A DNA stretch of 22,624 bases from a virus (taxonomy: Duplodnaviria; Heunggongvirae; Uroviricota; Caudoviricetes): IMG/VR virus record IMGVR_UViG_2521172589_000007; one strand, given 5' to 3'. Made by a program: the position numbers. Of the stretch, positions 1 through 3,000 are shown in pieces (within the stretch, counting starts at the first letter, position 1; the number at the start of each line of letters is the position of its first letter).

Positions 1-3000
1 ATGAAGGCTGAAATCAGCCGTAGAAGTCTGATGAAAACCTCCGCACTTGGCAGTCTTGCGCTGGCAAGCAGTGCTTTCACTCTGCCATTTTCTCAAATGG
101 TCCGGGCGGCAGAGGCTCCGGTAGAAGAGAAAGCGGTCTGGAGTTCCTGCACCGTTAACTGCGGGAGCCGCTGTCTGTTACGTTTGCATGTGAAAGATGA
201 CACCGTGTACTGGGTGGAGTCTGATACGACAGGTGACGACGTCTACGGTAATCATCAGGTTCGCGCGTGTTTACGCGGGCGCTCTATCCGCCGACGGATG
301 AATCATCCTGATAGGTTGAAATATCCCATGAAGCGCGTCGGCAAGCGCGGTGAAGGTAAATTTGAACGGATAAGTTGGGACGAAGCCCTGGATACCATCA
401 GTGATAATCTTCGGCGGATCCTAAAAGATTACGGCAATGAGGCTGTACATGTCCTGTACGGAACAGGCGTAGATGGCGGAAACATCACCAACTCAAACGT
501 CCCGTACCGTCTGATGAACTCTTGCGGTGGTTTTCTCAGTCGCTATGGCAGCTACAGTACCGCACAGATCAGTGCCGCAATGAGTTATATGTTCGGTGCC
601 AATGATGGCAACAGCCCGGATGATATCGCCAATACGAAACTGGTCGTTATGTTCGGAAATAACCCGGCAGAAACGCGGATGAGCGGCGGTGGTGTCACTT
701 ACTACGTCGAGCAAGCCCGCGAACGTTCAAACGCACGCATGATCGTCATCGATCCACGTTATAACGACACAGCTGCCGGGCGTGAAGATGAATGGCTGCC
801 CATTCGCCCAGGCACCGATGGCGCACTGGCCTGTGCGATTGCCTGGGTACTGATTACTGAAAACATGGTCGATCAGCCATTTCTCGACAAATATTGTGTT
901 GGTTACGATGAAAAAACTCTGCCCGCCAACGCACCACGTAACGCGCATTATAAAGCCTATATTCTGGGCGAAGGGCCTGACGGCATAGCTAAAACGCCGG
1001 AATGGGCAGCAAAAATCACCAGCATCCCGGCAGAAAAAATTATCCAGTTGGCACGAGAGATCGGTTCAGCAAAACCTGCTTATATTTGTCAGGGTTGGGG
1101 GCCACAACGACATTCCAACGGCGAGCAAACGTCCCGCGCTATTGCCATGCTTTCCGTTCTCACCGGTAACGTCGGCATAAACGGCGGCAACTCAGGTGTA
1201 CGCGAAGGTAGCTGGGATCTGGGGGTAGAATGGTTCCCGATGCTTGAGAACCCTGTTAAAACGCAGATTTCCGTCTTTACATGGACAGATGCCATCGACC
1301 ATGGTAAGGAAATGACCGCGACCCGTGATGGTGTTCGTGGAAAAGAAAAACTGGATGTCCCCATCAAGTTTTTATGGTGCTACGCCAGTAACACATTGAT
1401 CAATCAACATGGCGACATCAATCACACCCATGAGGTGCTTCAGGATGACAGCAAGTGCGAGATGATTGTTGGCATTGACCACTTCATGACGGCCTCGGCT
1501 AAGTATTGCGATATCCTGTTGCCCGACCTGATGCCAACAGAGCAAGAAGACCTTATCTCTCATGAATCTGCAGGGAATATGGGCTATGTGATCCTCGCCC
1601 AACCCGCAACCTCTGCAAAATTTGAACGCAAACCCATCTACTGGATGCTGAGTGAAGTCGCCAAACGCTTAGGACCAGACGTTTATCAAACCTTTACTGA
1701 AGGTCGCAGTCAGCATGAATGGATCAAATATCTCCATGCGAAAACGAAGGAACGTAACCCTGAGATGCCCGACTACGAGGAGATGAAAACGACCGGGATC
1801 TTTAAGAAAAAATGCCCGGAAGAACACTACGTCGCTTTCCGCGCATTCCGTGAAGATCCCCAGGCAAACCCGTTGAAAACACCTTCGGGGAAAATCGAAA
1901 TTTATTCTGAACGACTGGCGAAGATTGCGGATACCTGGGAATTGAAAAAAGATGAAATTATTCATCCCCTTCCAGCTTATACGCCAGGTTTTGATGGCTG
2001 GGACGATCCCCTGCGGAAAACCTATCCACTGCAGTTAACGGGCTTCCACTACAAGGCGCGTACCCACTCCAGCTACGGCAATATTGATGTGTTACAGCAG
2101 GCCTGCCCACAAGAGGTGTGGATCAACCCCATTGATGCTCAGGCTCGCGGTATCCGTCATGGCGATACCGTGCGGGTATTTAACAATAATGGAGAAATGC
2201 TGATTGCCGCAAAAGTGACTCCGCGTATTCTGCCTGGCGTTACCGCCATCGGGCAAGGTGCGTGGCTTAAAGCGGATATGTTTGGTGACCGGGTCGATCA
2301 CGGCGGCAGTATCAATATTCTGACCTCTCACCGCCCTTCACCGCTGGCAAAGGGAAACCCGTCGCACAGCAATCTTGTCCAGATCGAAAAGGTTTAAGGA
2401 GTAGCCCATGACCACACAATATGGATTTTTTATCGATTCCAGCCGCTGTACTGGCTGTAAAACCTGCGAACTGGCGTGCAAAGATTTTAAAGTTGGTTAC
2501 GTATCGTTTAAAATCAATTAGATAGCCCGTCATTTCTGCGCTCACACGTCCCAACATTGAAAAACATGCAAAGCTTTGTAAGCCGATGCAAAGCTTTGTG
2601 TGTCTCACTTTTGTCCCAATACCAATCCGAATCCACCCTTTGTCATCATTGAGAAATGGCAAGGAAGAAAAGGATGTTACTGCACGATTTGACAAATCCG
2701 CCAGAGCTATCGCATACTGACCGCACTACAACGTCAGCGGTCAACCGCACCCGATAGCTTTGCGGCTTTTTTATGCCTGTTTACAGGTATCGCCATATCA
2801 ATGGCGGGTCGAGAGAGCCTAATACAATACCCTTTCGGGAAATACGCTCCGCCGTCTGACGCGGTAGTTGAAGCCCGCCCCCCCCCACTAAGGTGGCAGT
2901 CAATACTAAAACGTCAGGAGTCATAATTATGACTAATCAACTCATTCCCGTTTTCGATGGAACCATCAACAACGAACCAGTTTTACTTTGCAATGCTCGC

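What the first reader, a model, noticed from the sequence alone, without database searches (positions are those of the whole stretch)
2566..2599. Tandem 14-bp palindromic motif ATGCAAAGCTTTGT x2 at the prophage edge
Two exact copies 20 bp apart, each centred on the perfect palindrome CAAAGCTTTG, lie 75-110 bp inside the prophage/host junction. Same-face spacing and dyad symmetry suggest binding sites for a dimeric DNA-binding protein: an operator for the adjacent accessory genes or arm-type sites for integrase/excisionase near the attachment site.
Basis: seen in the sequence. Interest (0 to 1): 0.4.

Follow-up and report, generated by a model that had tools for sequence, protein, structure and literature searches.

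The report
Excisionase sites in prophage attachment arm
The repeated 14-base motif is real, and it is most likely where the prophage's excisionase binds in a phage-P22-type attachment site, so it is an ordinary, already understood kind of element, not a new regulatory switch.

Summary
ATGCAAAGCTTTGT occurs exactly twice (2566-2579 and 2586-2599), 20 bp apart, 72-106 bp inside the junction of a roughly 60-kb prophage inserted in ynfG.

The motif lies in the arm of the attachment site that is distal to int (the lambda 'P arm', so this junction is attR). The prophage's int and xis, at its other end, are 71% and 72% identical to phage P22 Int and Xis. The arm DNA is 82% identical to the P22 attP arm, which has the same two repeats at the same position (ATGCAAAGCCTTGC and ATGCAAAGATTTGT).

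In 112 related arms the layout has no indels: GTCCCA, then 48 bp, then GTCYCA-5-GTCYCA. The 48 bp varies in sequence but always shows a 10-bp phased repeat (lag 10, z = 16). That is the known binding pattern of excisionases, and it sits at the same distance from the core as lambda X1/X2.

Best reading (confidence 0.62): an Xis-binding array flanked by Int arm-type sites. No binding was tested here, and the P22 Xis footprint paper could not be read.

The perfect palindrome is specific to this lineage. A hairpin or terminator role is possible but appears in only about half of the arm variants. The readings as an operator for neighbouring genes, as CII sites or as Int arm sites are not supported.

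This is a new member of a known kind and of low interest.

The parts
2487..2493 (.). Crossover core TTTAAAG at the host (ynfG) / prophage junction. In the reconstructed attP it is the centre of the perfect palindrome CAACTTTAAAGTTG, the likely core-type Int sites.
   Evidence: The same 7 bp are found at the other prophage end, directly before the rest of ynfG. phiPOC-J13, which has an identical arm, integrates site-specifically in ynfG (PMC4193171).
2512..2524 (+). IHF-like site AATCAATTAGATA (1 mismatch to WATCAANNNNTTR) between the core and the inner arm-type site.
   Evidence: Consensus scan. There is a mirror IHF-like site on the int side at L004 36882-36894. This is a consensus match only; binding is inferred.
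2538..2553 (+). Conserved block GCGCTCACACGTCCCA ending in the inner putative Int arm-type site GTCCCA (2548-2553).
   Evidence: It is identical in P22. As a 16-mer it retrieved 120 viral-contig stretches; 116 had enough flanking DNA to score, and 112 of those share the arm architecture.
2557..2601 (+). 10-bp phased repeat array (about 4-5 units of WTGNAAAS-like sequence), the proposed Xis (excisionase) binding region. It contains the two reported 14-mers at 2566-2579 and 2586-2599.
   Evidence: Homologous repeats occur at the same place in P22 attP. The 48-bp interval has a fixed length in 112 of 116 arms, with T every 10 bp and AA 4 nt later. Autocorrelation peaks at lag 10 (z = 16.2) and lag 20 (z = 11.6) over 20 diverged variants. 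The position matches lambda X2/X1.
2564..2603 (+). Potential 17-pair hairpin formed by the two palindrome-containing copies (-21.9 kcal/mol on the + strand, -15.9 on the - strand). It is a possible secondary role as a terminator or RNA-processing site.
   Evidence: The homologous spot is annotated as a predicted terminator in the phage L, epsilon34 and SfII records. A hairpin is present in only about half of the variant clusters, and covariation is modest.
2602..2618 (+). Outer pair of putative Int arm-type sites, GTCTCA (2602-2607) and GTCCCA (2613-2618), 11 bp apart and directly abutting the repeat array. Homology to other P22-type arms ends here.
   Evidence: The same pair, GTCCCAAATTTGTCCCA, lies inside the 3' end of int on the other arm (L004 36834-36850) and is found in 79 of 80 related int loci.

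Best explanation
The two 14-mers are the core of the excisionase (Xis, recombination directionality factor) binding array in the P arm of a phage-P22-type attachment site. In the integrated state that arm sits at this prophage/host junction, which is attR in lambda nomenclature.

Shown by sequence:
- The prophage is inserted in ynfG at a 7-bp core.
- At its far end it carries an intact P22-like xis overlapping a P22-like tyrosine integrase gene.
- The arm is homologous to the P22 attP arm.
- Reading outward from the core, the arm has an IHF-like site, one GTCCCA, a 48-bp segment made of 10-bp phased repeats (which holds the two 14-mers), and then two more GTCYCA sites.
- Two further GTCCCA sites lie in the other arm.

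Inferred mechanism:
- GTCYCA is the arm-type site of the heterobivalent Int.
- After induction, Xis monomers bind cooperatively, one per helical turn, along the repeat array and bend the arm sharply.
- This helps Int occupy the abutting arm-type sites, so that the excisive intasome forms on attR and attL.
- Re-integration is disfavoured at the same time.
For: Setting: the window is 100% identical to E. coli O104:H4 genomes. The prophage runs from the ynfG stub at 2493 to int next to the rest of ynfG.

Proteins: Int is 71% identical to P22 Int over 377 aa. Xis is an intact 123-aa ORF, 72% identical to P22 Xis over 116 aa, and scores above threshold for Pfam HTH_17 (36.6 bits against a cut-off of 27) and TIGR01764 'excisionase family DNA-binding protein' (29.3 against 28.8).

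DNA homology: the arm at 2507-2624 is 82% identical to the P22 arm and 85% identical to the ST64T/L arm. P22 reads GTCCCA...ATGCAAAGCCTTGCaaaccgATGCAAAGATTTGTaTGTCCCAtttTTGTCCCA in register.

Family architecture:
- 112 of 116 arms fished with the inner-site 16-mer alone share GTCCCA-48 bp-GTCYCA-5-GTCYCA without indels. There are 20 clusters below 80% identity in the 48 bp.
- Homology stops right after the last GTCYCA, and several different neighbours follow it.
- The 10-bp periodicity is strong (lag 10, z = 16.2).

Int sites: five same-orientation GTCYCA sites are spread over both arms, against a background of 0.57 per kb. That leaves the repeats, which occur in one arm only, for another protein.

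Position: lambda X2 (+65..79), X1 (+87..101) and P2 (+102..111) compare with the repeats here at +77..90 and +97..110 and the arm-type site at +113.

Literature (PMC7498355, citing Mattis et al. 2008):
- RDFs bind head-to-tail to tandem repeats one DNA turn apart.
- P22 Xis bends att DNA.
- Secondary P22 Xis sites overlap Int sites.
Against: - No binding data exist for this element. The P22 Xis footprint paper (Mattis 2008, PMC2519534) and the P22 att-site paper (Smith-Mungo 1994) could not be read. Assigning the P22 footprint to these repeats therefore rests on my memory and on inference.
- Xis sequence and repeat sequence do not covary cleanly in 14 paired xis/arm loci. The same arm type goes with two different Xis helix-turn-helix sequences (L138/L190 versus L161). 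Nearly the same Xis goes with two different arm types (L189 versus L131/L185).
- Phased A-rich repeats could also be an intrinsic bend or a host-factor site.
- In this lineage the region is also a strong hairpin.
Confidence: 0.62

Rival explanations
1. The element works mainly as an RNA hairpin. One option is an intrinsic terminator or insulator between the att site and the neighbouring genes. The other is a sib-like processing site downstream of int that is present in the phage (attP) form and is separated from int on integration.
For: - A 17-pair stem at 2564-2603 has -21.9 kcal/mol and z = -6.7.
- The same spot is annotated as a predicted terminator in phage L, epsilon34 ('possible rho-independent terminator for transcription from int') and SfII.
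- Hairpins persist in several diverged arm variants, with some changes on both sides of a pair: 65% of cells paired against 21-50% for slid controls.
- A conserved A-run precedes the stem, which is a T-run on the minus strand.
Against: - About half of the 20 variant clusters have no hairpin (z about 0), although they keep the spacing and the 10-bp phasing.
- The covariation score is only slightly above the control slid by -2 columns (0.189 against 0.159).
- No U-run directly follows the stem on the + strand (tail CTCACTTTTG). On the - strand the stem drops to 10 good pairs.
- The record annotations are in-silico predictions (PMC8022706).
- The palindromic unit TTGCAA, repeated every 10 bp, gives a hairpin as a by-product.
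Confidence: 0.13
2. The repeats are additional arm-type binding sites for the integrase N-terminal domain.
For: They lie in an att arm. A 9-mer, GATGCAAAG, also occurs in the int-side arm of this prophage.
Against: - That 9-mer is absent from the P22 int-side arm, and about two chance 9-mer pairs are expected in the 770 bp examined.
- GTCYCA is the motif found in both arms, in one orientation, and conserved (GTCCCA or GTCTCA) across all variants.
- The repeat sequence changes greatly between arm variants while the Int N-terminal domain hardly changes.
Confidence: 0.06
3. The segment is a bendable spacer or host-factor site (phased A-tracts, Fis or IHF) that only sets the geometry between Int arm sites.
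For: The conserved columns are mainly T and AA every 10 bp plus an AAAA run. From my recollection of Cho et al. 1999, P22 recombination does not need IHF; I could not read that paper here.
Against: - The motif does not match the IHF consensus. The IHF-like sites lie elsewhere (2512-2524 and L004 36882-36894).
- Within lineages the units are conserved well beyond A-tract content (ATGCAAAG in P22, L, epsilon34 and here).
Confidence: 0.08
4. The repeats are CII/C1 activator sites (TTGC-N6-TTGC) or an operator that controls the adjacent accessory genes.
For: The epsilon34 genome paper noted two TTGCN6TTGC sites at the homologous place and speculated that CII activates gtrA (PMC2629481; record annotation).
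Against: - There is no perfect TTGC-N6-TTGC here. There are only two one-mismatch versions, and they are on the strand that points toward the core, not toward the antirepressor genes.
- Many arm variants have no TTGC at all.
- The motif segregates with int/xis, not with the neighbouring genes.
- There are no other copies in the prophage.
- The only good promoter-like match nearby is further in, at 2689-2718.
Confidence: 0.04

Closest known systems
Phage P22 attP P arm (Int/Xis/IHF site-specific recombination module of P22, ST64T, L, epsilon34, SfII/SfV and DLP12-type elements)
   Same: - Homologous Int (71% identical) and Xis (72% identical).
- Homologous arm DNA (82% identical) with the two repeats in register.
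- The same five GTCYCA sites.
- xis overlaps int.
- IHF-like sites at equivalent places.
   Different: - The core and the target differ: a 7-bp TTTAAAG core inside the ynfG coding sequence, not the 3' end of a tRNA gene (thrW or argU).
- Both repeat copies here are identical and perfectly palindromic.
- One outer arm site is GTCTCA.
- The module sits in a 933W-like short-tailed (Sepvirinae) prophage next to antirepressor genes, not next to gtrABC.
Lambda attP P arm: Xis sites X1-X1.5-X2 next to Int arm-type site P2
   Same: - Direct repeats about 20 bp apart, with a 10-bp binding register.
- The same distance from the core (+65 to +101 in lambda, +77 to +110 here).
- They directly abut an arm-type Int site on the side away from the core.
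- The arm is the one distal to int and ends up at attR.
   Different: - No detectable sequence similarity of the sites or of Xis (72 aa in lambda against 123 aa here).
- The arm-site arrangement differs: an inner site plus an outer pair here, against P2, H1 and P1 in lambda.
- No Fis site is evident here.
Lambda sib/tI retroregulator
   Same: A hairpin located beyond the att core, downstream of int in the phage form only.
   Different: The lambda element lies outside the P arm and is a proven terminator and RNase III site. Here the hairpin overlaps the protein-binding array, lacks a proper U-run and is not conserved across the family.

Membership tests
P22-type attP P arm with Xis-binding region | The element is mobilised by a P22-like heterobivalent tyrosine integrase. 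| tested here: met
   The int at the other prophage end is 387 aa, 71% identical to P22 Int, and matches Pfam Phage_integrase at 155 bits.
P22-type attP P arm with Xis-binding region | A cognate P22-like excisionase is encoded next to int. | tested here: met
   An intact 123-aa ORF overlaps the int start. It is 72% identical to P22 Xis and scores above threshold for HTH_17 and TIGR01764. RefSeq annotates only a 66-nt pseudogene fragment there.
P22-type attP P arm with Xis-binding region | The arm DNA is homologous to the P22 attP arm, with the repeats at the equivalent position. | tested here: met
   82% identity over 118 bp to P22 at 21163-21279. The aligned sequences were read directly.
P22-type attP P arm with Xis-binding region | Int arm-type sites are present in both arms and flank the Xis region. 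| tested here: met
   GTCYCA at 2548, 2602 and 2613, and at L004 36834 and 36845, all in one orientation. That these are the Int sites is inferred, not shown.
P22-type attP P arm with Xis-binding region | Tandem repeats lie one helical turn apart, the binding mode of RDFs. | tested here: met
   Lag-10 autocorrelation 0.49 against 0.26 for shuffles, z = 16.2, over 20 diverged arm variants. The binding mode is as described in PMC7498355.
P22-type attP P arm with Xis-binding region | Xis physically binds and bends this segment, and excision depends on it. | not testable with these tools
   This needs EMSA, footprinting and excision assays.
Rho-independent terminator | A G+C-rich stem-loop is followed at once by a U-run, and the structure is conserved in relatives. 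| tested here: inconclusive
   The stem is present. The U-run is not contiguous. The hairpin is absent from about half of the variant clusters, and covariation is modest.
CII/C1 activator binding site | A TTGC-N6-TTGC direct repeat straddles the -35 region of a promoter that points at the regulated gene. | tested here: not met
   Only one-mismatch versions are present (TTGCATCGGCTTAC and TTACAAAGCTTTGC), on the minus strand, pointing toward the core.
Immunity-repressor or accessory-gene operator | The motif recurs at the promoters it controls and travels with the regulated genes. | tested here: not met
   There is no other copy with up to 2 mismatches in the 60-kb prophage. The antirepressor module occurs without the motif in other Stx phages. 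The motif occurs with unrelated neighbours.
IHF binding site | A match to WATCAANNNNTTR. | tested here: not met
   No match with up to 1 mismatch falls inside 2557-2601. The nearest is at 2512-2524.

The most novel reading that the evidence does not exclude
In the ATGCAAAG lineage (P22, L, epsilon34 and this ynfG prophage) the Xis-binding array has been shaped into a 40-bp inverted repeat that also acts at the RNA level. It would be a hairpin downstream of int that is linked to int only in the excised attP form. It could then work as a sib-like retroregulator of Int, or as an insulator against read-through from the host ynfEFG operon, all within the same 40 bp that bind Xis.
Probability: 0.15. 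Interest if true: 0.4.

Novelty: new member of a known kind. Interest (0 to 1): 0.15.

Why it matters
It matters little beyond annotation.

- It fixes the exact att junction and the orientation (attR) of a prophage common in E. coli O104:H4 and in Stx1-converting Shigella phages (75/02 and POC-J13).
- It shows that this prophage's xis is intact although RefSeq marks it as a pseudogene fragment, so the prophage may still be able to excise.
- It gives a family-wide picture of the P22-type arm: the Int arm-site motif stays constant while the phased array between the sites varies.

That picture could help in predicting att sites and excisionase sites in prophages. It does not reveal a new mechanism.

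Tried and rejected
- **Transposable (Mu-like) phage.** I first suspected this because the insertion is inside a gene. I rejected it because a tyrosine integrase and a 7-bp core shared by both junctions were found.
- **Int-based fishing in viral contigs.** This was useless for the arm. Nearly all the prophage contigs end 3 bp after the int stop.
- **Shared 8- and 9-mers between the two arms.** GATGCAAAG on the int side looked like a third copy. It is not conserved in P22, and about two chance 9-mer pairs are expected, so I dropped it.
- **Covariation between Xis helix-turn-helix sequence and repeat sequence.** There was no clean pattern, so it decides neither way.
- **Literature.** The P22 Xis paper (DOI and PMC2519534) and Cho 1999 (PMC93926, a PMC id from my memory that may be wrong) are not held. 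Searches for a description of the P22 attP site gave only secondary mentions. One ynfG search was too broad and gave nothing useful.
- **Solved structures.** Nothing related to this Xis was found by sequence.
- **Rfam.** Nothing meaningful covers the motif. A mir-19 hit at E = 0.014 is simply the hairpin.

Full report
**1. Observation.**
The 14-mer ATGCAAAGCTTTGT occurs exactly twice, at 2566-2579 and 2586-2599 on the + strand, with starts 20 bp apart. Each copy contains the perfect palindrome CAAAGCTTTG.

There is no further copy with up to 2 mismatches in the window. There is none in the complete prophage of the identical genome either.

Loose matches (up to 2 mismatches) are expected 0.30 times in shuffles. 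Two exact copies 20 bp apart are far beyond chance; my estimate is about 1e-6.

**2. Where it lies.**
The window is 100% identical to E. coli O104:H4 chromosomes. Positions 1-2397 are ynfF, and 2409-2493 is the 5' stub of ynfG.

A prophage of about 60 kb follows. It is a 933W-like, Sepvirinae-type phage, closest to Shigella phages 75/02 Stx and POCJ13. I saw no stx gene in the annotation.

The rest of ynfG resumes directly after int at the other prophage end. Both junctions share the 7 bp TTTAAAG. The reconstructed attP has the perfect palindrome CAACTTTAAAGTTG around it. phiPOC-J13, whose arm is 100% identical, integrates site-specifically in ynfG (PMC4193171).

Because int lies at the far end, the window junction carries the arm distal to int. 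That is the 'P arm' of lambda nomenclature, so this junction is attR. Counted from the core centre, the two 14-mers are at +77..+90 and +97..+110.

**3. The recombination module is P22-type.**
- Int (387 aa) is 71% identical to P22 Int.
- Upstream of int and overlapping its start is an intact 123-aa ORF. It is 72% identical to P22 Xis over all 116 residues.
- That ORF scores above threshold for Pfam HTH_17 and for NCBIfam TIGR01764 'excisionase family DNA-binding protein'. RefSeq annotates only a 66-nt pseudogene fragment there.
- The arm DNA (2507-2624) is 82% identical to the P22 arm and 85% identical to the ST64T/L arm.
- In register, P22 reads ...GCGCTCACACGTCCCAtcttcgaaagacATGCAAAGCCTTGCaaaccgATGCAAAGATTTGTaTGTCCCAtttTTGTCCCAaacc.

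The repeat and its 20-bp spacing are therefore conserved at the equivalent position. The perfect palindrome is not.

**4. Family-wide anatomy.**
I used only the inner 16-mer GCGCTCACACGTCCCA as bait, which places no condition on the repeats. It retrieved 120 viral-contig stretches, of which 116 had enough flanking DNA to score.

- 112 of the 116 share, without any indel, GTCCCA - 48 bp - GTCYCA - 5 bp - GTCYCA.
- Similarity ends right after the last site, and several unrelated contexts follow.
- The 48-bp segment falls into 20 clusters below 80% identity. All of them keep a T every 10 bp, AA four bases later, and an AAAA run at the start.
- Autocorrelation over the 20 cluster representatives peaks at lag 10 (0.49 against 0.26 for shuffles, z = 16.2) and at lag 20 (z = 11.6).

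GTCYCA occurs three times in this arm (2548, 2602 and 2613). It occurs twice in the other arm, inside the last 50 nt of int (L004 36834 and 36845). All five are in one orientation, against a background of 0.57 per kb. The int-side pair is present in 79 of 80 related int loci.

A motif that is present in both arms, constant across the family and matched by a conserved Int N-terminal domain is what Int arm-type sites should look like. This is inference.

IHF-like sites lie between the core and the inner arm sites on both sides: 2512-2524 and L004 36882-36894.

**5. Mechanism.**
The published accounts of P22 attP that I could consult name only Int, IHF and Xis as its binding proteins (the mv4 preprint's legend; my recollection of the Mattis abstract). 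Int sites and IHF-like sites are accounted for, which leaves the phased array for Xis.

Recombination directionality factors bind head-to-tail and cooperatively to tandem repeats one DNA turn apart, and they bend att DNA. P22 Xis is listed among the benders. Its secondary sites are said to overlap Int sites (PMC7498355, citing Mattis 2008). That fits an array wedged between arm-type sites.

Lambda measured in the same frame has X2 at +65..79, X1 at +87..101 and P2 abutting at +102..111. Here the repeats are at +77..110 and the abutting arm-type site is at +113.

I therefore propose the following. Xis coats 2557-2601 and bends the arm. It helps Int load on the adjacent GTCYCA sites to build the excisive complex on attR, and it disfavours re-integration. 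The sequence facts are shown; the binding and the bend are inferred. Confidence is 0.62.

**6. Rivals.**

(a) *Hairpin or terminator.* Each copy holds a palindrome, so the two copies can pair into a 17-pair stem (-21.9 kcal/mol, z = -6.7). The GenBank records of L, epsilon34 and SfII mark a predicted terminator at exactly this place.

Against this, about half of the 20 variant clusters have no hairpin. Covariation is modest: 65% of cells paired, and a score of 0.189 against 0.159 for a slid control. There is no proper U-run after the stem. The record annotations are in silico (PMC8022706). A secondary RNA-level role in this lineage remains possible.

(b) *CII sites.* The epsilon34 paper speculated that TTGCN6TTGC sites here activate gtrA (PMC2629481). 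This window has only one-mismatch versions, and they are on the strand that points toward the core. Many arm variants lack TTGC altogether.

(c) *Operator for the neighbouring antirepressor genes.* The motif segregates with int/xis, not with those genes. It has no other copies in the prophage.

(d) *Int arm-type site.* GTCYCA fits that role better (section 4).

(e) *Pure bend or host-factor site.* This cannot be excluded. Unit conservation within lineages argues for sequence-specific recognition.

**7. Weak point.**
In 14 paired xis/arm loci, the Xis helix-turn-helix sequence and the repeat sequence do not covary cleanly.
- L138 and L190 have a divergent Xis but the same arm type as L161.
- L189 has nearly the same Xis as L185 but a different arm type.
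- All these arms still share the degenerate unit WTGNAAA, so this neither supports nor refutes Xis binding.

I could not read the two primary P22 papers.

**8. Novelty.**
This is the ynfG-targeting member of the well-studied P22 Int/Xis/attP family. It is a new member of a known kind and of low interest.

Its 'excisionase sites near the attachment site' alternative is the one supported. Its operator alternative and its dimer inference are not.

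Noticed in passing
window 2878-2886 (poly-C run just upstream of the antirepressor gene that starts at 2929): The homopolymer C tract differs in length (C9 here, C7 in E. coli NMBU-W12E19) between prophage copies that are otherwise identical over 421 bp. This suggests slipped-strand variation directly upstream of the ant gene.
   Followed up: partly
window 2803-2887, + strand: There is a near-threshold Rfam match to sRNA-Xcc1 (RF02221): 49.9 bits against a gathering score of 53, E = 9e-8, over the full model length. It lies between the att arm and the antirepressor gene, and its 3' end contains the variable poly-C tract.
   Followed up: no
Phage lambda J02459.1, about nt 27440-27545 (locus L206), just beyond tI/sib and outside lambda's own attP: The lambda b region holds a decayed copy of a P22-type P arm: TCAAACCTGTCGCAC...GCACAAAGCCTCGCAATCCAGTGCAAAGCTTTGTGTGCCACCCACTACGACCTGCA. 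The downstream context matches that of some IMG/VR P22-type arms. It looks like a fossil of an earlier exchange of the integration module.
   Followed up: partly
L004 35494-35865 (other end of the same prophage, outside the window): The xis ORF is intact (123 aa, 72% identical to P22 Xis) and overlaps int as in P22. RefSeq annotates only a 66-nt 'helix-turn-helix domain-containing protein' pseudogene fragment there.
   Followed up: yes
L004 36834-36850 (3' end of int); the same in P22 and in 79 of 80 related int loci: The two int-side GTCCCA sites lie inside the int coding sequence and encode the conserved C-terminal tail VPN(L/M)SH. The DNA-site constraint and the protein sequence are therefore coupled.
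   Followed up: partly
window 2647-2751 and 2752-2781, + strand: A 34-codon ORF (MARKKRMLLHDLTNPPELSHTDRTTTSAVNRTR) is followed by a terminator-like hairpin, CCGCACCCGATAGCTTTGCGG plus TTTTTT. A promoter-like site lies at 2689-2718. None of these is annotated in the records I looked at.
   Followed up: no
loci L120, L123 and L196 (IMG/VR contigs): In these loci an xis-like ORF (45-48% identical over 44 aa) lies about 200 bp upstream of the conserved arm 16-mer, and no int was detected between them. This is an arrangement different from the standard xis-int-core-arm order.
   Followed up: no
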